The notes under the pieces were generated by a model. That model was not told where the DNA came from and searched no databases. It saw only the letters and a list, made by a program, of their open reading frames with translations. Positions 5,792 to 14,533 of a stretch of DNA of 64,000 nt are shown here, in pieces. The stretch is from Nitrosopumilus sp. (GTDB lineage Archaea > Thermoproteota > Nitrososphaeria > Nitrososphaerales > Nitrosopumilaceae), in NCBI GenBank assembly GCA_965238275.1, contig OZ250186.1, forward strand, positions 832,001 through 896,000, read 5' to 3'. Numbering within the stretch: position 1 is the stretch's first letter; each line of letters starts with the position of its first letter. The position numbers were made by a program, and so were the translations under genes.

Positions 5792-6065
5792 GATCCTGCA
5801 GGCAAGGATTTTGCGTATGCAGGTTTGGTATGGTGTTGCCTGCCACATTGGGCATAAAGACTCAGATGCACGTACGGACTTGAGAATGTGACCGATGAAA
5901 TACGGTACCGCCAAGATCCTTAATTTTAAAAAAACGTGGTCAACACTGCCTGTCCGTATTGCTTCCAGACCGGCATTGAATACATCATGCAAATTCGTGT
6001 CTGGATGGATAACGCGCATGACGCTGTTTTTTAATATTTTTATACATCCGATGCCGTATACTGTC

Positions 6066-6317
6066 ATGCCACAGGTCAGTACCGCTGATGACATAGAACG
6101 AGAATCAAGGCGGGTCATAGGTGCATTGTACGGCGATGTCAGCGACTTTCGGGTCAACGCAACGTTTCAGATTCCGGAGAAGGGGCCACGGGAGGCATGG
6201 GACGTGCAGGTAAACTTTATGCTCAACTCCCTAAAGTATACCGTCGATCTTGAGATGCAGGAAAAGGACGGCCAAGTAACCAATGCCAGACTAATCGACA
6301 CCATGACACCTCTCTAA
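6066..6317 (+). CDS. conserved hypothetical protein
   Basis: ORF MPQVSTADDIERES... with a TATA-like tttttata upstream; start reassigned. Confidence 0.6.
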   Translation: MPQVSTADDIERESRRVIGALYGDVSDFRVNATFQIPEKGPREAWDVQVNFMLNSLKYTVDLEMQEKDGQVTNARLIDTMTPL

Positions 6318-6336
6318 TTTTTAAAATCTCTCAAGC

Positions 6337-6861
6337 CTATACTGTCAAAATCTTCTTTGCTTCCTTGATCCTTCCAAGCAGGCTGTTGATGTAGGTGTCT
6401 GCAAACCGCTCAAACGTTACATATTCGTTGGCCCTGTCCAAGCTCTTCTGCTTTTTGTACTCTGCTTGCAGCCATTCAAAATCGGACTCCTTGAGGCTGA
6501 TGGCGCAGTTCTGGGAGTCAAACTTTGACTCTATCACGTTGGCGATGAAATAGCTGACAAACTTTGTAAAGCACTTTACCCTGTACTTCTCATAATACTC
6601 CTCCCCAAGCTCCGTATGGTTTGCCTCCAGCCACTGTTGTATATCCGACCTGATGGTCATGGTGTTGTATCGTCCCGAGAGATCAAGCCTGATCCTGTGC
6701 GGCTCCACAGAGTAGTAGCCGCGCCTTACCTCATTCATCATGATGATCAGCGTGCTTGGAAGAAACATTCCGGGATAATTCTTGTCTGTTACATCCTGCA
6801 GTTTTGCAATGATCGCAGGCTTCAGGCCCACGGTGGCATAGCCTTTTCCGGGCATACCCAA
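6337..6861 (-). CDS. hypothetical protein, possible DNA-binding
   Basis: 174-aa ORF with normal composition, MPGKGYATVGLKP start. Confidence 0.6.
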   Translation of the reverse strand: MGMPGKGYATVGLKPAIIAKLQDVTDKNYPGMFLPSTLIIMMNEVRRGYYSVEPHRIRLDLSGRYNTMTIRSDIQQWLEANHTELGEEYYEKYRVKCFTKFVSYFIANVIESKFDSQNCAISLKESDFEWLQAEYKKQKSLDRANEYVTFERFADTYINSLLGRIKEAKKILTV

Positions 6862-7003
6862 TAGACTGGTCTGATGCTTATATCATTTTCAGATTCCCAT
6901 ACGTATCTGTCCTTGCCAATCCAAATGTGACGTCGCATCCTGTTCGGGTATCGCTCCCCGGCACCATCCATGCTTCTGATTCTGCACCGCAGACGGTTCC
7001 GTA

Positions 7004-7168
7004 CTACTTTTTCTTGAACTCCTTTATCAGCCGGATTGCCACCCACACCGTTCCCATTATCATGGTTCCGACGCCAAGGCCGCTATAGAACGGATCTTCT
7101 CCACCGGTCTGGCTCAGGCCGATCCCCAGTATGATCAAAATGACTGCAAACGCATACTGCTTGTCCAT
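7004..7168 (-). CDS. small two-TM membrane protein (54 aa)
   Basis: Manual translation MDKQYAFAVILIILGIGLSQTGGEDPFYSGLGVGTMIMGTVWVAIRLIKEFKKK*, preceded by GGGAG; below the ORF track cutoff. Confidence 0.6.
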   Translation of the reverse strand: MDKQYAFAVILIILGIGLSQTGGEDPFYSGLGVGTMIMGTVWVAIRLIKEFKKK

Positions 7169-7447
7169 GTCTCCCTTGGGGCTGATGAACTAATAAGATT
7201 TTGAAGGCGTTGCGGTACCTGGTCCATGTCGGCCCCGGAATGGGATTTCTGACCATCGGCGATCCGTCATCTGCCCGCAGAATACCGGTTCCCGGATTTG
7301 ATCCGTTTGTGCATCAAAAACGCACAAAAACTCAAAAATCACACAGTTTTTCTAAGAAAATGTACTATACGCATTATTTTTACACACTAAAACGTATTAT
7401 ACCTGAAAATTTCAATATTTATATAATTTCACGTGTATATCTAATGG

Positions 7448-9034
7448 ATGGCAGAGGTTGACGGATTTGGTGCTGCAATTATCGTATTCATCATAATCAC
7501 GCTTGTAGTGGGCGTCCTTGCAGGCAGGCTGGTAAAAAAGAGCGGCAAGAGGCTGATAATTGCAGGCAAGAGTCTGCCGCTGGTCATGGTAGGAACAATG
7601 CTTGCAGCACAGGCAGTGGACGGAAACTCGTCACTGGGAAACATCTCGCTGGTCTTTCAGTTCGGATTCTGGGCCGGGGCCGTCGTTCCGATAGGTTTGG
7701 GAGTGTGCCTGCTGGTGGTTGCCGCATTCTATGCCAAGCCGCTAAACAAGATGTCGATGATCACCCTGCCTGACTTTTACTACAGAAGATTCGGAAACGG
7801 GGCCGAGGGGATATCCGGCGTGCTCATGATTCTCAGTTTTATCATTCTTGTGGCAGGAAATCTGGCTGCCAGCGGGTTCATTCTAGAGGTCGTATTTGGA
7901 ATAGACTATTTCTGGGGCGTGTTGATCTCATCTTTGGTAGTCGTGGCATATACTATAGCCGGGGGACTGTTTGCCTCTGCATACACGAACCTCTTCCAGG
8001 TGTATCTTGCAATAGGCTCGTTCTGGGCAGCATTCCTGTTCTTTGGCGGCGGCTTTTCAGAGGTGCCGTGGGACGTCATATACAACAACGCTCCGCCGGA
8101 GTTCTTGGATCTCTCGGGACTGTATGATATCGCCAACGGGGCCCTGATCAACTGGGGTGCCATACTTGCACTGGGACTTGGAGACATCATCGCACTTGAC
8201 TTCATGGAGAGGGTGTTCTCTGCCAAGAATCCAAAGACTGCAAGGAGGGGCGCCCTCATGGGAGGCGCACTGACACTCTTTACAGTTATTCCTACCAGCA
8301 TGCTGGGAATCGTGGCATTCTACTATCTTCCCGGAGACACACTGCCTGACTTGGCCCTGCCACTGCTTGCCACGGAGTTCATGCCGTTTGCCATAGGGGC
8401 CTCCATACTGATGGGGGTGATCGGGGCATCCATGTCCACTGCAAGCGGGGGGCTGCTGGCCATATCAAGCGTGGTTTCTCGGAACCTGCTACAGAGGATA
8501 ATCCGGCGCAGGTGGCTGGGCAAGCAGGCCTGGAGCGACGGCAAGCTGCTTGTAACCACGCGGATTGTCATTGCCCCCATGATGATAGCCGGCGCCACCC
8601 TGGCATACTTTGTACCGGCACCGGGGGTCTTTCTCGTGCTGGCATTTGATATCGTCTTTGCCGGAGCCTTGGCGCCTCTCACATTCGGACTGTTCTGGAA
8701 GAAGGCAAACATGCCTGCAGCCATTACCTCCCTGCTTGTAGGATCATTCCTGCGGCTGGCGTTCTTCTTCGTAATTCCACTAGAGTACGACGGAATAGGC
8801 TCAATGATACCGCCTGCAGTCTCGTTTGTACTGTTTATAGTGGTCGCACTTGCAACCCAGAACAGGTATCCAGGAAAGGCAAGGCACGACATAAGGGACT
8901 ATGTTCCGCCCGAGGAGGATATCATTGCCGGCGAGGATCTCAAGCACTTTCAGGAGAGCGACGAGTCGCTGTCCGGCGTACAGAACACAGACACGTCGGG
9001 GCCGGACTCTGGCATGGCGCACAAGAACACCTGA
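7448..9034 (+). CDS. sodium:solute symporter (SSS/SLC5 family)
   Basis: About 13 TM segments; ITLPDFYYRRFG, YTIAGGLFASAYTN, ASMSTASG motifs; TTTATATA box at about 7418. Confidence 0.9.
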   Translation: MAEVDGFGAAIIVFIIITLVVGVLAGRLVKKSGKRLIIAGKSLPLVMVGTMLAAQAVDGNSSLGNISLVFQFGFWAGAVVPIGLGVCLLVVAAFYAKPLNKMSMITLPDFYYRRFGNGAEGISGVLMILSFIILVAGNLAASGFILEVVFGIDYFWGVLISSLVVVAYTIAGGLFASAYTNLFQVYLAIGSFWAAFLFFGGGFSEVPWDVIYNNAPPEFLDLSGLYDIANGALINWGAILALGLGDIIALDFMERVFSAKNPKTARRGALMGGALTLFTVIPTSMLGIVAFYYLPGDTLPDLALPLLATEFMPFAIGASILMGVIGASMSTASGGLLAISSVVSRNLLQRIIRRRWLGKQAWSDGKLLVTTRIVIAPMMIAGATLAYFVPAPGVFLVLAFDIVFAGALAPLTFGLFWKKANMPAAITSLLVGSFLRLAFFFVIPLEYDGIGSMIPPAVSFVLFIVVALATQNRYPGKARHDIRDYVPPEEDIIAGEDLKHFQESDESLSGVQNTDTSGPDSGMAHKNT

Positions 9035-9085: not shown

Positions 9086-10777
9086 ATGAAGTATCCTGAC
9101 TTGTTGCCTGCGGACCTTGCACGCGTGGGAACCGCAGAATCAAGAAAGCTCAACCTCATAGTGGGCCGGCTGGTAACTGATGCCGTAAAGACGTCTTTGG
9201 GGCCCAGGGGGATGGAGAAGATCTTCACTGACATCATCGGCGAGGACACCATAACCAAGCACGGCGGCGCGTTTCTGCGAAAAGTCGACGTCGAGCATCC
9301 CGTGGCCAAGGCGATAGTGGAAGGCGTCAACACGGTGGATACGCACGTGGGGGACGGAACAGTCTCTGCTGCAATCCTGATAGGCTCCCTGCTCAAAAAG
9401 GCCGACGGGATGCTCGGGATGGGACTGCAGCCTGCCACAATCATCAGGGGGTATGAGCGGGGGCTGGATCTCGCACTGGAGACGCTTGACGAGGTAAAGA
9501 TGGCCCGGGATGCCTCGGACAGACATGTCCTGGAGCAGCTTGCAGCCTCGTGTCTTGACGGAAAGGCCATAACCAGCCTGGTCTCTGATGCACAGAGACT
9601 CCGGCAGATGATAGTTGATGCATGTTGCCATGTGGCCGATCTTCAGAACGGCTCCATTGATGTTGATGACATCAAGATAGAAGAAAAGCTTGGAAACGCA
9701 AACGACATACAGCTGGTCCGGGGAACCGTGATTGACAAGACCATTGACAATGCGGCAATGCCACGGTGCGTTACTGATGCCAGGATACTGCTCCTCAACG
9801 AGCCGCTTGAGACGATGCGCACCAAGACTGACGATGCCATTGAGATAGACTCCCCGGAGCAGATGTCGCGCTTTCTTGAACAGGAGGTCATCGACGTGCG
9901 CAATATGGTACAGAAGATTATTGGTTGCGGGGCCGGCGTGGTCGTGTCCCGAAAGGGGATAAACGACATTGCACAGGAGTGCCTTGCACAGGCCGGAATA
10001 ATCTCGATAAGAAGGGCCAAGTATAATGATCTCTGGTGGCTTGAAAAGGCCACGGGAGCCTCCGTCTGCAAGAGTCTTGATGCAGTGTCCTCCTCGGAAC
10101 TGGGATATGCGCAGAAGGTGCATGAGAGGGTGGTCGGCGACGAGAGGATGGTATTTGTCGAGGGCTGCAGGAACCCGCGCTCGGTGACCATCCTGCTGCG
10201 TTCAAACTCCAAGAGGTATCTTGACGAGTTCCACCGCAGCGCCCTTAACGCGCTGTTCGTACTGAGGGACTTTATCCAGACCCCGTACGTGGTGCCCGGA
10301 TGCGGCTCCATCGAGGCGGTGCTGGCAGACAGGATCAAGGAGCGATCAGTCGGCATAGGGGACAGGAGCCAGATTGCAGTTGCAATGTTTGCAGACGCCC
10401 TGGAGGAGATCCCGCTGACCCTGGCAAGAAACGTCGGCATGGATCCGCTTGACACCCTGGCTGCCCTCAGATCCCACTATGGGGATTCCCACGGCAGATC
10501 CAGATGGTACGGCATAGACTCGGAGAGGAGGTCAGTCTCTGAGATGCCTGGCACGGGGGTGATAGAGCCCCTTGTGGTCAAACAGCAGGTGCTAAAGACT
10601 GCAGCAGAGGTGTCTGCGATGATCCTCAACGTTGATGACATATTCATGAAGGACGAGATTGACAACACGCACTGCCACATAGACGGAACGGTCCATGCGC
10701 ACCATGACGGCGGGAAGGCGCACAACCACTTTGAGCAGGAGGGGTTGGAGCAGAGGCAGATGCACCACTACTACTAG
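9086..10777 (+). CDS. divergent group II chaperonin (thermosome/TCP-1 family) with His-rich C-terminal tail
   Basis: KTSLGPRGMEK, VGDGT, IEPLVVKQQVLKTAAE, ILNVDD; tail THCHIDGTVHAHHDGGKAHNHFEQEGLEQRQMHHYY. Confidence 0.88.
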   Translation: MKYPDLLPADLARVGTAESRKLNLIVGRLVTDAVKTSLGPRGMEKIFTDIIGEDTITKHGGAFLRKVDVEHPVAKAIVEGVNTVDTHVGDGTVSAAILIGSLLKKADGMLGMGLQPATIIRGYERGLDLALETLDEVKMARDASDRHVLEQLAASCLDGKAITSLVSDAQRLRQMIVDACCHVADLQNGSIDVDDIKIEEKLGNANDIQLVRGTVIDKTIDNAAMPRCVTDARILLLNEPLETMRTKTDDAIEIDSPEQMSRFLEQEVIDVRNMVQKIIGCGAGVVVSRKGINDIAQECLAQAGIISIRRAKYNDLWWLEKATGASVCKSLDAVSSSELGYAQKVHERVVGDERMVFVEGCRNPRSVTILLRSNSKRYLDEFHRSALNALFVLRDFIQTPYVVPGCGSIEAVLADRIKERSVGIGDRSQIAVAMFADALEEIPLTLARNVGMDPLDTLAALRSHYGDSHGRSRWYGIDSERRSVSEMPGTGVIEPLVVKQQVLKTAAEVSAMILNVDDIFMKDEIDNTHCHIDGTVHAHHDGGKAHNHFEQEGLEQRQMHHYY

Positions 10778-10808: not shown

Positions 10809-11558
10809 CTAGAGGATGCTGCCTGGAGTAAGTACGCCGTAGATTATGTGCGCCCCTATCGCAAGGCTGAACGCACCTGCCAGATACCTGGCAATCCTCT
10901 GTACGGATCCCGCCCTTGAGGTAAGGGCAAGCGGCAGGCCGATCAGGTTGCTTATCAGGGTCATGCCGATTATGGAGCCGAGTCCGAATATGAGGATGAA
11001 GCTGATCACCATTCCTGCGCTGTCCAGCGTGACTGCAGTCAGGACGACCAGGCTGCCGCTGCCTGCAAGCCCGTGGATCAGCCCTATGATGTACGACTTG
11101 TGGCTGTGCCTGTGATCCGTGTGACTGTGCTCATGAACATGGAATGTTCCGTCATCGTGCCTGTGGGGGTGCCTGTGCCTGAGGCTGAAGAGCCTCCTCC
11201 TGTCCAGTATCGTGACTGCCCCCAGTACGACAAGCATGACCCCCACTGCCGCCTCAAGGCCGGTAAAGACGTTATCCTGAATCTGTATTGCAAGGACGTA
11301 CACCAGCAGCCCCATTATGATCAAAGTCGTCGTGTGTCCTGCGCCCCACAGTATCCCGATTACTGATGACCTGGCTATCCCTTTCCGGATGACATCCCTG
11401 ATCCGCCCACCACCACCACCACCACCTGTTCTGGCCCCGGACACCCTGGTGGCCACTGCTGCGACATGGTCGGATTCGAACGCGTGCTCCAGTCCTATGG
11501 CAAGCCCCAACCCCAGTGCAAGCAGGGGACTGAAATCAAACAGGTTCTCCAGGGTCAT
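10809..11558 (-). CDS. nickel/cobalt transporter-like membrane protein (NiCoT/UreH-like)
   Basis: HAFESDH (HX4DH) motif, WGAGHT, His-rich loop HRHPHRHDDGTFHVHEHSHTDHRHSH, IHGLAGSG. Confidence 0.85.
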   Translation of the reverse strand: MTLENLFDFSPLLALGLGLAIGLEHAFESDHVAAVATRVSGARTGGGGGGGRIRDVIRKGIARSSVIGILWGAGHTTTLIIMGLLVYVLAIQIQDNVFTGLEAAVGVMLVVLGAVTILDRRRLFSLRHRHPHRHDDGTFHVHEHSHTDHRHSHKSYIIGLIHGLAGSGSLVVLTAVTLDSAGMVISFILIFGLGSIIGMTLISNLIGLPLALTSRAGSVQRIARYLAGAFSLAIGAHIIYGVLTPGSIL

Positions 11559-11661: not shown

Positions 11662-12033
11662 CTATGATCCCCTCAGGACATACCTGCTGATTCTTATCGG
11701 GGAGTCAAGGACCAGCACCGTCTCTGAACTACCAGATGCCATGCGGAATACAAGCCTTCTCATGCTCTCCGGAACGCCGATCATGACATTGTCAGGTGAG
11801 ATGAGATCGCATACCTGCTCCCCTATGTCATCTGCACTCGCTCCTGCTGCGATCTGCCTCATGACGTATGCTGCCATTGCCATGACTGCCTCGTTTATGT
11901 TGATGCGTATGCCTCCCTGAATCTTCCTGTTGATGGCCTTTGCCGACTCTATCACCACATCCCGGTCGTACCCTGAAAAGATGATCATTGGCTGCGTGTC
12001 CGGATCGCCTTGAACCTCTGCGCTGAACCTCAT
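11662..12033 (-). CDS. urease gamma subunit-like protein (orphan)
   Basis: GIRININEAV, VMIGVPES and LDSPI align by eye with UreA GLKLNYPEA, VMEGVPEM and VHNPI; ATGA overlap with the upstream gene. Confidence 0.7.
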   Translation of the reverse strand: MRFSAEVQGDPDTQPMIIFSGYDRDVVIESAKAINRKIQGGIRININEAVMAMAAYVMRQIAAGASADDIGEQVCDLISPDNVMIGVPESMRRLVFRMASGSSETVLVLDSPIRISRYVLRGS

Positions 12034-13148
12034 TGCCTGTCCGGAATCTTTGCACGCGGGCCGTCACTGAAGTGGTATGTGTTGCCCGTTCCCCTGTAGT
12101 CGTTGGGCCTTACAGGACTTCCTTCCTTCAGCCCCCTCTTTGTCAGGGAGAGGCCTGCAAGCAGCTCGACTATGAGCCTCTGGCCAAGTCCGGATGTTAT
12201 TCCTCCGTTGTACGAACTGTTGTCGCTGACATCATACGCAGGTGCGACTTCCACCAGATCCATGGCAAACCTGTCCGGATCAAATGATTTTGAGAGGAGC
12301 CTTACCATCCTCATTCCTTCCCTGGATGTCAGGCCGTTGGGTTCAGGCTCGCCGGTACCCGGGGCGTATGCCGGATCAAACGAGTCAATGTCCCAGCTAA
12401 GATACACTGCGTCGGTTCCGTCATTGGCCCTGTCTGCAATCTCCTTTGCAATCATGTCGATTCCAAGCTCCTCTACGTCCAGCATGGTAAACCACTGAAA
12501 GTCCTGGTCAGACATCCACTTGTACAGGTCCGGTCCCGGCCAGTATCCGCGGGGACCTACCAGGGTGTAGTTCTTTCCCTTCATGCAGCCCATCTCCATT
12601 ATCCGCCGGATGTGCGCGCCATGATCGTACTTGTAGCCTGTGAGCCCCTGCGGTGCGCAGTCTGCGTGGGTATCAAAATGAATCATGCCAATGTTTTTGT
12701 ATTTTTTTGCAAACGCCCTGACATTGGCATATGTAATCGAGTGATCTCCTCCAAGCATTACCGGTATGCCCTCCTCGTCGAGCACCTCCTTGACCTTTTT
12801 TGTCATGCGCTTGTGCGACTCTATGACATCTCCGGGGGAGACATGGACGTCCCCGTAATCCACTGTCCTGAACGTTCCAAACGGATCCGCGCCTGTCTCG
12901 ATGTTGAACCTCTCGTACGGGGGGGACGGAATCGTTGATGCGGCGCGAAGTGCCCTCGGGCCGTACCTTGCCCCGGGACGGATCGTGGTCCCAAAATCAA
13001 ACGGTTCGCCAATAACGGCAACGTCAGGCTTTGCCTGCTTTAGCTCCTCGTGCGTTCTTATCCATGGCAGGTGCAAAAACGTATTGATGCCGACAAACGG
13101 CGCAACATCGGCACCCCTGTAATCATCACCATAAAACTCCATGCCCAT
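12030..13148 (-). CDS. ureohydrolase (agmatinase/guanidinobutyrase family)
   Basis: RPGARYGP, GGDHS, DTHAD, DIDSFDPAYAPGTG, DLVEVAP: all binuclear metal ligands present. Confidence 0.93.
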   Translation of the reverse strand: MGMEFYGDDYRGADVAPFVGINTFLHLPWIRTHEELKQAKPDVAVIGEPFDFGTTIRPGARYGPRALRAASTIPSPPYERFNIETGADPFGTFRTVDYGDVHVSPGDVIESHKRMTKKVKEVLDEEGIPVMLGGDHSITYANVRAFAKKYKNIGMIHFDTHADCAPQGLTGYKYDHGAHIRRIMEMGCMKGKNYTLVGPRGYWPGPDLYKWMSDQDFQWFTMLDVEELGIDMIAKEIADRANDGTDAVYLSWDIDSFDPAYAPGTGEPEPNGLTSREGMRMVRLLSKSFDPDRFAMDLVEVAPAYDVSDNSSYNGGITSGLGQRLIVELLAGLSLTKRGLKEGSPVRPNDYRGTGNTYHFSDGPRAKIPDRQ

Positions 13149-13297
13149 AACACCCAATCGGTAAATTTGATAATTAAGGATTCTAGGTAAACTACGTATG
13201 CTGTATCATTGCTGATTCATGCGGCGTGGTGGGAGGAATTCCGGAATATGTAATGTACGATTTAACTATAAAAATAATATCTGCCAAAATAACATTG

Positions 13298-14533
13298 ATG
13301 ATAGGTGCCTCCAAGAGTTCGACTGACTACATGAACGAGGGCCTGACTGCCGTATACTATAACGAGTTCAAAAAGGCCGTATCAAAGTTTGACCGGGCAG
13401 TCTCAATTGATCCGGAAAATATCGTGGCGCAGCTTCACAAGGGCATTACGCTTGGCAGGATTGGCCGTCACAAGGATGCCGTGGCATGCTTTGATGCAGT
13501 GCTTGATGCCGATCCCAAGAATCTTGATGCGCTGTACAACCGCGGCCTGTACCTGGGGAGAATGGGGAAGTACGAGGATGCCATACGCTGTCTTGCCGAA
13601 TCCCTCCAAGTCGATCCAGGATTCCTGGACTCCCTGACTGAGACCGGGGCGTGCCTTGGCAGGATGGGAAGAAACACGGAGGCCCTGGAGATGATTGAGC
13701 GTGCGCTGTATATCGATCCGAAATACTCTGCTGCATTATACAACAAGAGCCTGATTCTGGGACGGCTGGGCAGGAAGGCTGAGGCAATGTCACTCCTGCA
13801 GGACGCGATCGAGGAGGATTCCAGACAGTCTGATGCAGTCTATCGGGAGGGACAGAAGCTTACCCGGGAGGGAAAGCACGAGGAGGCGATAAGACTGTAC
13901 ACCCGCGCCCTGGAGATTGACGACAAGAATACCAGGGCACTGGTCGCAAAGGGATGGACTCTTGACTTTGCAGGGTTCTCAAACAAGGACGTATTCGTAT
14001 TCTATGACAAGGCGCTGGAGGCAGACCCGCATTGCACCGATGCCTGGCTGTACAAGGGACTGGTGCTGGACAGGACGGGCATGTATAAGAGGGCAGTCGA
14101 GTGCTTTGATCGCATCTTGGAGTATGATCCGCAAAACATCCGGGCGCTTTACAGCAAGGGCATATCGCTCTTCTCGCTCAAACGCTTTGGGGCTGCGCGG
14201 TTCTACTGCGAGTGCGCCCTGGACGTGGATCCCAAGAACATCCGGGCCGTATGCAGCATGGTGTGGCTTTTGGAGCATGCAAAAAAATACAACGAGGCGC
14301 TGGCCTACTGCGAGCAGGCGCTGAAGATCAATCCGGACTATGTCTATGCCGTAAGCTACAAGGGAAAGTTGCTCATGCTGCTCAAGCGGTACGCCGAGTC
14401 CCTGGAGTGGTACGACAAGACACTGGCCCTTGCGCCTGACAACCAGACTGCAATATACCACAGGAACATGGTTGTTGATGCAATCGAGAAGGCCAAGAGG
14501 GATTCTGCACCCAGAAGGTTCCCAAGACTATAA
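13298..14533 (+). CDS. TPR repeat protein
   Basis: About 11 34-aa repeats of type A...KG..L...GR..EA...FD.AL..DP.N. Confidence 0.9.
   Translation: MIGASKSSTDYMNEGLTAVYYNEFKKAVSKFDRAVSIDPENIVAQLHKGITLGRIGRHKDAVACFDAVLDADPKNLDALYNRGLYLGRMGKYEDAIRCLAESLQVDPGFLDSLTETGACLGRMGRNTEALEMIERALYIDPKYSAALYNKSLILGRLGRKAEAMSLLQDAIEEDSRQSDAVYREGQKLTREGKHEEAIRLYTRALEIDDKNTRALVAKGWTLDFAGFSNKDVFVFYDKALEADPHCTDAWLYKGLVLDRTGMYKRAVECFDRILEYDPQNIRALYSKGISLFSLKRFGAARFYCECALDVDPKNIRAVCSMVWLLEHAKKYNEALAYCEQALKINPDYVYAVSYKGKLLMLLKRYAESLEWYDKTLALAPDNQTAIYHRNMVVDAIEKAKRDSAPRRFPRL

What the first reader, a model, noticed from the sequence alone, without database searches (positions are those of the whole stretch)
9086..10777. 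Chaperonin paralogue with altered ATPase motifs and a metal-binding tail
Seen: canonical thermosome TITNDGATIL reads TITKHGGAFL, GDGTTT reads GDGTVS, and the catalytic Asp of ER(S/A)LHDAL reads HRSALNAL (D to N). The usual Gly/Met tail is replaced by one with nine His and a Cys. Established: these acidic residues drive ATP hydrolysis in group II chaperonins, and C-terminal tails face the cavity. Inference: an ATPase-poor subunit specialised as a metallochaperone cage, or a modifier subunit of the housekeeping thermosome.
Basis: partly seen in the sequence, partly recalled or inferred. Interest (0 to 1): 0.7.

Follow-up and report, generated by a model that had tools for sequence, protein, structure and literature searches.

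The report
His-tailed chaperonin of archaeal urea island
This gene encodes an extra protein-folding cage found in some ammonia-oxidising archaea, always alongside urea- and nickel-handling genes; its histidine-rich tail is its best-conserved part, which suggests it helps load metal into those enzymes.

Summary
ORF 9086-10777 (+) is a 563-aa group II chaperonin. Both catalytic Asp positions are replaced (NDG to KHG, HDAL to LNAL). The tail carries 9 His and 1 Cys where the genome's two canonical thermosomes have Gly/Met tails. The P-loop "change" is trivial, because those canonical copies read GDGTTS.

The gene belongs to a monophyletic paralogue ("CPN3") spread across ammonia-oxidising archaea. 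The tail is its most conserved segment, with 88% pairwise identity against 62% for the body. Seven His are invariant in all 81 sequences.

Loss of the Asp pair is derived. Nitrososphaeraceae and some other deep members keep both Asp but already carry the tail.

In a sample of 201 genomes, CPN3 occurs in 50. All 50 also hold urease genes and a very conserved arginase-family ureohydrolase (76-99% identity). CPN3 usually lies within 10 kb of that ureohydrolase, a urease-gamma-like gene, a NicO-type nickel permease and an SSS symporter. In 12 of 80 loci it directly follows ureD.

Two genomes that lack CPN3 carry a His-rich tail on the ureohydrolase itself.

Best reading: a dedicated nickel-handling chaperonin for this island. 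No metal binding or ATPase activity was measured. The urease-locus link was already published; I found no paper describing the tail, the Asp loss or the ureohydrolase link.

The parts
9086..10777 (+). CPN3: third, divergent group II chaperonin paralogue, 563 aa
   Evidence: Pfam Cpn60_TCP1 453 bits over residues 30-522. NCBIfam thermosome_alpha 497.8 bits, cut-off 450. Best solved match E 3e-113. Third of three Cpn60_TCP1 genes in the genome.
9248..9277 (+). TITKHGGAFL (residues 55-64): His59 replaces the first catalytic Asp (canonical NDG)
   Evidence: Alignments. xHGGAF at residues 58-63 in 66 of the 68 Nitrosopumilaceae-core sequences, with His59 in all 68. The Asp is kept in 6 deep-branching sequences.
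9350..9367 (+). P-loop GDGTVS (residues 89-94); Mg-binding Asp90 kept
   Evidence: D90, G91 and T92 are invariant in alignment A2. The own canonical paralogues read GDGTTS.
10232..10255 (+). HRSALNAL (residues 383-390): Asn388 replaces the second catalytic Asp (canonical HDAL)
   Evidence: Asn in 66 and Ser in 2 of 68 core sequences; Asp in all 13 deep-branching sequences.
10649..10774 (+). His-rich C-terminal tail (residues 522-563): three HxH pairs plus terminal HHYY; 9 His and 1 Cys
   Evidence: It is the most conserved window of the protein. AF2 pLDDT is below 55 here.
7448..9034 (+). Sodium:solute symporter (SSS family), 51 bp upstream on the same strand
   Evidence: Pfam SSF 4.6e-27. Directly upstream on the same strand in 36 of 80 loci. 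A published figure legend calls AOA genes of this type SSS-type urea transporters (PMC5797428).
10809..11558 (-). NicO/UreH-like nickel permease with a His-rich loop, convergent with CPN3
   Evidence: No Pfam hit of its own. Homologues at 53-62% identity (rows below the two near-identical ones) carry PF03824 and PF13386 and are named high-affinity nickel permease or RcnA by their sources. Carries an HxxxxDH motif and the loop HRHPHRHDDGTFHVHEHSH.
11662..12033 (-). Urease-gamma-like protein, 123 aa
   Evidence: Pfam Urease_gamma 1.7e-6. Matches solved urease gamma chains at E 8e-5. Found beside the ureohydrolase in 31 of 41 full-flank loci.
12030..13157 (-). UreoH2: arginase-family ureohydrolase, 375 aa, 76-99% identical across ammonia-oxidising archaea
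   Evidence: Pfam Arginase 1.4e-81. Identities. Nearest solved chains are guanidinobutyrase, 'agmatinase 2' (7esr/7oi1) and metformin hydrolase. The GGDHS, DTHAD and DIDSFDP motifs are present.
13226..14533 (+). TPR-repeat protein, a conserved member of the island
   Evidence: Pfam TPR families. Present in 35 of 41 full-flank loci.
6337..6861 (-). Conserved 174-aa protein of no known family, a member of the island
   Evidence: No significant Pfam or NCBIfam hit. Present in 36 of 41 full-flank loci.

Best explanation
The gene encodes a third group II chaperonin, called CPN3 here, that is specific to ammonia-oxidising archaea. It belongs to their urea and nickel gene island, not to the housekeeping thermosome.

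Shown:
- It is a full-length thermosome homologue.
- Its nucleotide-binding scaffold is kept: LGPRG, GDGT, Lys160 and GxG.
- It has a conserved C-terminal tail carrying three HxH pairs and a terminal HHYY.

Inferred: the protein forms a thermosome-like ring. The C-termini point into the cavity, as in other chaperonins, so the tails would line it with a nickel-binding surface. This surface would hold Ni and pass it to an enclosed client during folding or assembly.

The most likely client is the very conserved arginase-family ureohydrolase encoded next door. That enzyme would release urea for the urease. The urease itself is a possible second client.

In Nitrosopumilaceae, including this genome, the two catalytic carboxylates became His59 and Asn388. 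ATP is probably still bound but hydrolysed slowly or not at all. In that lineage the function would rest on the tail and the cage, not on a fast ATP cycle.
For: 1. Family and conservation. CPN3 forms one clade (SH-aLRT 100, stem length 0.56-0.62) whose internal branching follows taxonomy. All 80 fetched loci yielded a continuous CPN3 reading through to the tail. The tail has 88% pairwise identity against 62% for the body, with seven invariant His.

2. Co-occurrence in 201 sampled genomes of the class:
- CPN3 was found in 50 (48, 2 more by fetching loci).
- All 50 carry UreoH2.
- All 50 carry urease genes (for G198).
- 42 urease-positive genomes lack CPN3.
- None of the 147 genomes without UreoH2 has CPN3.

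3. Synteny. Of 41 loci with at least 9 kb on both sides, 38 hold UreoH2, 40 the SSS symporter and 34 the nickel-permease-like gene. All 41 hold UreoH2 or ureG. CPN3 directly follows ureD on the same strand in 12 of 80 loci.

4. Complementary pattern. In family f5 (G134, G152) the operon is UreoH2, (gamma-like; G152 only), permease, ureABC, ureEFGD, with no CPN3. There UreoH2 carries a 55-aa C-terminal extension containing THIHSHKHGHHAHNH. In the other 54 loci listed, UreoH2 has no His-rich tail.

5. Nickel context.
- Homologues of the neighbouring permease are NicO/PF03824 proteins, named nickel permease by their sources.
- Its His loop shares the HxHxDGTxHxH pattern with the tail.
- One Nitrososphaera member adds a second, 40-aa His/Asp-rich insert.
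- No HypA scores above the Pfam cut-off in this genome.
- A related ureohydrolase, the Synechocystis guanidinase, was far more active when co-expressed with nickel-loading chaperones than without them (PMC11410670, passages). 'Agmatinase 2' chains, which I recall (no call confirms it) to be that guanidinase, are among UreoH2's closest solved relatives.

6. Precedent. H. pylori GroES (HspA) carries a His/Cys-rich C-terminal extension that acts as a nickel sequestration domain (PMC7840056, passages).
Against: - No metal binding, ATPase activity, oligomeric state or client was measured.
- The two genomes with a His tail on UreoH2 belong to one family, so they count as one evolutionary event.
- Related genomes are not independent, so the co-occurrence counts overstate the support.
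- In 12 loci CPN3 sits at the end of ureEFGD, and three full-flank loci have no UreoH2 within 10 kb. That fits a urease client at least as well.
- 42 urease-positive genomes, and 4 UreoH2-positive genomes, do without CPN3. It is therefore not essential for either enzyme.
- Deep-branching members keep both catalytic Asp, so "ATPase-poor" is not part of the ancestral mechanism.
- The metal could be Zn, Cu or Co instead of Ni.
- AF2 gives the tail low confidence, so no structure supports a defined site.
Confidence: 0.5

Rival explanations
1. CPN3 is a chaperone or stabiliser for the urease alone. Its link to the ureohydrolase only reflects that both genes travel in the larger version of the urea island. 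The tail would supply Ni to the UreEFGD pathway.
For: - CPN3 directly follows ureD on the same strand in 12 of 80 loci.
- All 50 CPN3 genomes have urease genes.
- In Nitrosocaldus-like genomes a chaperonin homologue lies between ureC and ureE, and no UreoH2 was found in that family (0 of 6). A tree joining that homologue with CPN3 is not rejected (p-AU 0.73).
- Abby et al. 2018 proposed urease stabilisation (PMC5797428, passages).
Against: - 42 urease-positive genomes lack CPN3, whereas only 4 UreoH2-positive genomes do.
- In this genome the urease cluster lies about 620 kb away, while UreoH2 is adjacent.
- In f5 the His tail sits on UreoH2, not on a urease subunit.
- The Nitrosocaldus homologue has no His tail.
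Confidence: 0.22
2. CPN3 is a modifier subunit that joins the two housekeeping thermosome subunits in mixed rings. It would slow the ATP cycle and add a general metal-buffering surface (Cu, Zn or Ni) under stress.
For: - Mixed thermosome rings are common in archaea (recalled, no call).
- CPN3 keeps the nucleotide-binding scaffold and overall fold.
- A canonical thermosome gene lies only about 15 kb upstream in this genome.
- One paper suggested a pressure-adaptation role for the extra copy (PMC7265257, passage).
Against: - The distribution is patchy (12 of 57 genomes of its own genus) and exactly matches that of UreoH2. A general stress subunit would not be expected to follow that pattern.
- It sits in operon-like positions with ureEFGD or the SSS symporter.
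- The clade has a long stem and only about 42% identity to the canonical subunits.
Confidence: 0.13
3. CPN3 is mainly a nickel store, comparable to Hpn or the HspA tail. It would use the chaperonin ring only as a scaffold, with no folding function, at least in Nitrosopumilaceae where the catalytic Asp pair is gone.
For: - The tail is more conserved than the body.
- The Asp pair was replaced while the tail stayed fixed.
- An extra His/Asp insert arose in a Nitrososphaera member.
Against: - The whole 520-residue body, including the nucleotide-binding residues, remains conserved and intact in all loci.
- His59 and Asn388 are themselves fixed, not decaying.
- A store would not need a 563-aa cage.
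Confidence: 0.1

Closest known systems
Archaeal thermosome alpha/beta subunits (group II chaperonins, Pfam PF00118)
   Same: Full-length homology, at 42% identity to the genome's own canonical subunits and E 1e-111 to solved thermosomes. The LGPRG, GDGT, Lys160 and GxG nucleotide-binding elements are kept.
   Different: - Both catalytic Asp are replaced in this lineage.
- A His-rich tail stands in place of the Gly/Met tail.
- Its occurrence among genomes is patchy and tied to the urea island.
- It forms a separate long-stemmed clade.
The 'Hsp60 homolog (arCOG01257)' reported in urease loci of Ca. Nitrosocaldus cavascurensis and Nitrososphaerales (Abby et al. 2018, PMC5797428; passages read)
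   Same: For Nitrososphaerales it is very probably the same family. Here too the gene lies between ureEFGD and the ureohydrolase.
   Different: [quoted passage not shown] Here it was found in 37 of the 140 genomes of the window's own family, which NCBI record titles of the matching loci name Nitrosopumilaceae.
- The Nitrosocaldus-like protein is only 27% identical, keeps NDG, GDGTTT and the Asp, and has no His tail.
- The passages read do not mention the tail, the Asp loss or the ureohydrolase link.
Helicobacter pylori HspA (GroES with a His/Cys-rich C-terminal extension)
   Same: It is a chaperonin-system protein with a His/Cys-rich C-terminal extension that acts in nickel sequestration in a urease-dependent organism (PMC7840056, passages).
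   Different: HspA is the group I co-chaperonin lid of a bacterium. CPN3 is the cage subunit of a group II chaperonin in archaea. The two have independent origins, and Ni binding was not tested for CPN3.
Mycobacterial GroEL1 (His-rich C-terminus)
   Same: It is a chaperonin paralogue in which a His-rich C-terminus replaces the GGM tail, with proposed metal binding or help for metalloproteins (PMC5904260, passages).
   Different: GroEL1 is a bacterial group I chaperonin. The passages read do not describe a link to a specific enzyme island or a loss of catalytic residues.
Nickel-loading chaperones of the Ni-dependent ureohydrolases (Synechocystis guanidinase system)
   Same: A dedicated helper for metal loading of an arginase-family enzyme. 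'Agmatinase 2' chains, which I recall (no call confirms it) to be that guanidinase, are among UreoH2's closest solved relatives.
   Different: Those helpers are HypA/HypB-like proteins (recalled, no call), not chaperonins. No HypA scores above the Pfam cut-off in this genome.

Membership tests
Group II chaperonin (thermosome/CCT) | Full-length Cpn60_TCP1 domain | tested here: met
   PF00118 453.2 bits, residues 30-522 against profile positions 1-488 of 490.
Group II chaperonin (thermosome/CCT) | Score above the curated thermosome model cut-offs | tested here: inconclusive
   NF041082 thermosome_alpha 497.8 bits, above its cut-off of 450. TIGR02339 thermosome_arch 485.2 bits, below its cut-off of 671.1.
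Group II chaperonin (thermosome/CCT) | Nucleotide-binding scaffold (LGPxG, GDGT P-loop with Mg-binding Asp, sensing-loop Lys, GxG) | tested here: met
   G39, P40, G42, D90, G91, T92, K160, G405 and G407 are invariant in the 23-sequence family alignment.
Group II chaperonin (thermosome/CCT) | Two catalytic Asp (NDG and HDAL motifs; equivalents of Mm-cpn D60/D386 and GroEL D52/D398; the numbering is recalled) | tested here: not met
   His59 and Asn388 in this protein and in the Nitrosopumilaceae core (H in 68 of 68; N in 66 and S in 2 of 68). Both Asp are kept in 6 deep members.
Group II chaperonin (thermosome/CCT) | Built-in helical lid in the apical domain | tested here: inconclusive
   The apical region aligns to solved thermosomes without large gaps. 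AF2 gives a helix at 257-280 after a low-confidence stretch at 246-249. The lid was not examined in three dimensions.
Group II chaperonin (thermosome/CCT) | Double ring of eight or nine subunits | not testable with these tools
   No ring was modelled.
His-rich-tailed nickel-handling chaperonin component (HspA-like, by analogy) | His/Cys-rich C-terminal extension | tested here: met
   9 His and 1 Cys in 42 residues, with seven His invariant in 81 sequences.
His-rich-tailed nickel-handling chaperonin component (HspA-like, by analogy) | Binds Ni(II) | not testable with these tools
   No computation here measures metal affinity.
His-rich-tailed nickel-handling chaperonin component (HspA-like, by analogy) | Genomic or phyletic link to a nickel enzyme and a nickel transporter | tested here: met
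   All 50 CPN3 genomes have urease genes. The NicO-like permease is within 10 kb in 34 of 41 full-flank loci.
Urease accessory gene set (ureDEFG neighbourhood) | Encoded within the urease operon | tested here: not met
   In this genome the urease cluster lies at C1:216-224 kb and CPN3 at 841 kb. In relatives CPN3 directly follows ureD in 12 of 80 loci.

The most novel reading that the evidence does not exclude
In Nitrosopumilaceae the chaperonin cage has become a nickel-delivery compartment that no longer depends on ATP hydrolysis.

Ni would pass from the His loop of the NicO-type permease to the cavity-lining tails, which carry the same HxHxDGTxHxH pattern. From there it would go into an enclosed nickel-dependent ureohydrolase.

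The fixed His59/Asn388 pair would turn the former catalytic site into a slow or metal-sensitive switch. The urease-gamma-like protein would dock the ureohydrolase onto the urease, so that urea is channelled directly. Together these would give some of the ocean's most abundant nitrifiers a route from a guanidino compound to ammonia.
Probability: 0.1. Interest if true: 0.85.

Novelty: new variant of a known kind. Interest (0 to 1): 0.62.

Why it matters
Ammonia-oxidising archaea are among the most abundant microbes in oceans and soils, and their use of urea matters for the global nitrogen cycle.

If this reading is right, CPN3 would be a group II chaperonin specialised for metal loading. I found no described case of that in the searches listed in this report. 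It would parallel, by independent origin, the His-rich GroES of Helicobacter and the His-rich GroEL1 of mycobacteria.

The finding also points to a conserved but uncharacterised module: a ureohydrolase, a urease-gamma-like protein and a nickel permease. This module may let these archaea draw ammonia from a guanidino compound by way of urea.

The natural D-to-H and D-to-N pair offers a ready comparison for how far a chaperonin can work without ATP hydrolysis. All of this is testable by expression in E. coli.

Tried and rejected
- **Complex prediction**, UreoH2 (alignment A1) with CPN3 residues 512-563 (alignment A2): "no answer", score 0.00, controls not run. It counts neither for nor against binding.
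- **AF2 model of CPN3** (alignment of 23 sequences): mean pLDDT 81. The tail (523-563) and residues 39-69 have low confidence, so the model says nothing about a metal site or the altered pocket. No fold search was run, because the sequence matches to solved thermosomes are decisive.
- **Pfam and NCBIfam on the permease-like protein and the 174-aa protein**: no significant family. The nickel-permease label rests on the precomputed Pfam hits and source names of homologues.
- **RNA evidence**:
  - A sponge metatranscriptome (X1) holds six short contigs at 95% identity or more (five at 99% or more). They lie on the SSS gene, CPN3 (9182-9388), UreoH2 and one upstream ORF.
  - A second metatranscriptome (X2) holds a relative at about 91% identity. 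One 2305-nt contig spans the SSS gene and the 5' part of CPN3, and a 1407-nt contig covers the gamma-like gene and UreoH2.
  - These are assembled contigs from RNA libraries. DNA carry-over cannot be excluded, so they are only a weak hint of expression.
- **Quick tree**: it placed the Nitrosocaldus-like urease-locus chaperonin away from CPN3. The constrained tree joining them scored 25 log-likelihood units better (p-AU 0.73). Orthology therefore stays open, and long branches are in play.
- **Guanidine hydrolase as the identity of UreoH2**: considered and rejected. The comammox guanidine paper reports no guanidine-degradation genes in ammonia-oxidising archaea (PMC11410670, passage).
- **Supplementary files**: I did not ask for the supplements of the papers cited. 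The supplementary figure S7 of PMC7265257 and the tables of PMC5797428 may show more about this gene than I could see.
Full report
**What is there.** The ORF at 9086-10777 (+) encodes 563 residues. It is a full-length group II chaperonin:
- Pfam Cpn60_TCP1 scores 453 bits over residues 30-522.
- NCBIfam thermosome_alpha scores 497.8 bits (cut-off 450), but TIGR02339 scores 485.2 bits, below its cut-off of 671.1.
- The best solved relatives are thermosomes, at E 1e-107 to 3e-113.

The genome is a single 2.217-Mb contig with three such genes. Two score about 625 bits against the Pfam model. This one scores 453.

- Alignments to solved thermosomes and to the two canonical paralogues of the same genome put TITKHGGAFL opposite TITNDGATIL, and HRSALNAL opposite ERSIHDAL.
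- His59 and Asn388 therefore occupy the two catalytic Asp positions. Their equivalence to Mm-cpn D60/D386 and GroEL D52/D398 is recalled. One search does list a "D386A Mm-cpn variant" among the hits.
- The P-loop point is weak. The canonical copies here read GDGTTS, so GDGTVS differs by one residue, and many relatives read GDGTTS.
- The tail has 9 His and 1 Cys. The canonical copies end in Gly/Met/Pro-rich tails without His.

**It is a family, and the tail is its hallmark.** Sequence searches found hundreds of proteins of 558-564 residues at 62-69% identity. Where a source names them, the names are Nitrosotenuis, Nitrosarchaeum and Nitrosopumilus. Eighty loci from species-representative genomes reach as far as Nitrosotalea and Nitrososphaeraceae, at 49-51% identity.

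In trees the family is one clade (SH-aLRT 100, stem length 0.56-0.62), and its inner branching follows taxonomy.

Among the 68 Nitrosopumilaceae-core sequences, pairwise identity is 62% for residues 20-520 and 88% for residues 524-563. The tail is the most conserved 40-residue window. H529, H531, G534, H537, H539, H546, H548, G553, Q556, R557 and H560 are invariant in all 81 sequences.

The common pattern is TH-x-H-x-(D/N)G-x-x-H-x-H ... H-x-H ... QR-x-x-HHYY at the C-terminus. The Cys is limited to the 68 Nitrosopumilaceae-core sequences. One Nitrososphaera member adds a second, 40-residue His/Asp-rich insert in the apical domain.

**The loss of the catalytic pair is derived.**
- Six deep-branching sequences keep both Asp (KDGAT/KDGGT plus Asp388). 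They come from Nitrososphaeraceae, a Nitrosotalea MAG and others.
- Seven Nitrosotalea-like sequences have Ser or Asn at position 59 but keep Asp388.
- All 68 core sequences have His59, together with Asn388 (66) or Ser388 (2).
- The nucleotide-binding scaffold is invariant throughout: G39, P40, G42, D90, G91, T92, K160, G405 and G407.

So the ancestral protein was probably an active chaperonin that already carried the tail. One lineage, including this genome, later fixed a His/Asn pair. By analogy with Asp-to-Ala mutants of other chaperonins (recalled), this should allow ATP binding but little hydrolysis. That step is inference.

**Genomic context.** In the window the SSS symporter ends 51 bp upstream on the same strand. 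Downstream and convergent lie a His-loop membrane protein, a urease-gamma-like protein and an arginase-family ureohydrolase, UreoH2.

The membrane protein has no Pfam hit of its own. Its homologues, at 53-62% identity below the two near-identical rows, carry PF03824 (NicO) and PF13386, and their sources name them high-affinity nickel permease or RcnA.

Across 41 loci with at least 9 kb on both sides:
- UreoH2 is present in 38.
- The SSS symporter is present in 40.
- The permease is present in 34.
- The gamma-like gene is present in 31.
- All 41 hold UreoH2 or ureG.

In 12 of 80 loci CPN3 directly follows ureD on the same strand. In this genome the urease cluster (ureCBA, ureE-F-G-D and a 765-aa transporter) lies about 620 kb away.

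**Phyletic pattern.** The sample is 201 genomes of the class, each at least 90% complete. It includes two unpublished genomes, G191 and G092, which were negative for all three genes and enter only the denominators.
- CPN3-type matches score at least 515 bits and reach residue 563. Canonical matches score at most 435 bits and end near residue 521.
- CPN3 was found in 48 genomes. Two of these, G187 and G116, are partial matches. Two more (G170, G198) were found by fetching their loci, giving 50.
- UreoH2, at 76% identity or more, is in 54 genomes.
- Strong urease-alpha matches are in 91 genomes.
- All 50 CPN3 genomes have UreoH2. Of these, 49 show the urease-alpha match. In G198 the ureA, ureB and ureEFGD genes sit at a contig end.
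- 42 urease-positive genomes lack CPN3.
- Four UreoH2-positive genomes lack it: two fragmented assemblies and the two genomes of family f5.
- Within the window's own genus, CPN3 and UreoH2 occur in the same 12 of 57 genomes.

Related genomes are not independent, so these counts describe the pattern and are not a statistical test.

**A complementary pattern.** In family f5 the operon runs UreoH2, gamma-like, permease, ureABC, ureEFGD. The gamma-like gene was seen in G152 only. No CPN3 lies within 20 kb. There UreoH2 carries a 55-residue C-terminal extension containing THIHSHKHGHHAHNH. In the other 54 loci listed, UreoH2 ends without any His-rich stretch. This is one lineage and so one event, but it ties the His-rich module to the ureohydrolase.

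**Nickel.**
- UreoH2's nearest solved relatives are guanidinobutyrase, "agmatinase 2" chains and metformin hydrolase. I recall, with no call to confirm it, that 7esr/7oi1 is the Synechocystis guanidinase and that it and metformin hydrolase are Ni enzymes.
- The comammox guanidine paper states that the Synechocystis enzyme was far more active when co-expressed with nickel-loading chaperones (PMC11410670, passages).
- This genome has no HypA above the Pfam cut-off.
- Among six-frame ORFs of at least 80 residues in the genome, nine show a triple HxH cluster. The only ones I judged to lie in real genes of a metal-binding kind are the CPN3 tail and the adjacent permease loop. The two share the HxHxDGTxHxH pattern.

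**Prior art.**
- Abby et al. 2018 (PMC5797428; passages read) reported a chaperonin homologue conserved in the urease loci of Nitrosocaldus and Nitrososphaerales. They said it was not found in Nitrosopumilales and proposed urease stabilisation.
- Zhong et al. 2020 (PMC7265257; passage read) noted an extra, phylogenetically distinct thermosome near a symporter and urease genes in a hadal genome.
- Nine full-text searches found no paper describing the His-rich tail, the loss of the Asp pair or the ureohydrolase link. Subscription journals and supplementary files were not covered.
- The Nitrosocaldus-like protein is only 27% identical and has no His tail. Whether it is orthologous is open.

The best-supported reading is a dedicated chaperonin of the urea and nickel island whose tail handles metal. 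UreoH2 is the likeliest client and the urease a serious alternative. I put this at about 0.5.

It is a new variant of a known kind. It resembles the His-rich GroES of H. pylori (PMC7840056) and GroEL1 of mycobacteria (PMC5904260), but in a group II cage and with a naturally disabled catalytic pair. Every functional step (Ni binding, ring formation, slow ATPase, client identity) remains inference.

Noticed in passing
window 12030-13157 (-): The arginase-family ureohydrolase is 76-99% identical across families of ammonia-oxidising archaea. The urease accessory protein UreG in the same loci is only 65-74% identical, and CPN3 only 46-68% apart from one near-identical sister genome. The substrate is unknown. 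The genome holds a second arginase-family gene elsewhere, at C1:1832509.
   Followed up: partly
window 11662-12033 (-): A 123-aa urease-gamma-like protein is encoded directly downstream of the ureohydrolase, with no beta or alpha subunit beside it. It might link the ureohydrolase to the urease.
   Followed up: partly
window 10809-11558 (-) and 10649-10774 (+): The His loop of the nickel-permease-like protein (HRHDDGTFHVHEH) and the CPN3 tail (HCHIDGTVHAHH) share an HxHxDGTxHxH pattern. They are the only two ORFs I judged to be real genes with a triple HxH cluster in the 2.2-Mb genome.
   Followed up: partly
L091:9521-10837 (-) and L089 about 5893-7180 (+): In the one family whose island lacks CPN3, the ureohydrolase itself carries a 55-aa His-rich C-terminal extension.
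   Followed up: yes
L080:928-2700 (+); protein P0133: A Nitrososphaera CPN3 carries an extra 40-residue His/Asp-rich insert in the apical domain, in addition to the tail.
   Followed up: partly
L087:6626-8176 (-), L088: Nitrosocaldus-like genomes have a very divergent chaperonin homologue (516 aa, 27% identical to CPN3) between ureC and ureE. It keeps the catalytic residues and has no His tail.
   Followed up: partly
proteins P0124, P0126: Two database representatives of about 1050 aa match the query in two stretches. In P0124, whose sequence was read, these are two chaperonin units fused in tandem. Their source is unknown.
   Followed up: no
own genome C1:208149-210655 and C1:213480-216109 (outside the window): A tandem duplication lies beside the urease cluster. 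It repeats a 663-aa ORF with an identical N-terminus, together with a 172- or 213-aa ORF.
   Followed up: no
window 6337-6861 (-): A conserved 174-aa protein of no known family accompanies the island in 36 of 41 full-flank loci. Its N-terminus looks like a ribbon-helix-helix DNA-binding motif to my eye, so it may be a regulator.
   Followed up: no
own genome C1:824863-826329 (about 5.7 kb before the window start): One of the two canonical thermosome genes lies only about 15 kb upstream of CPN3.
   Followed up: no
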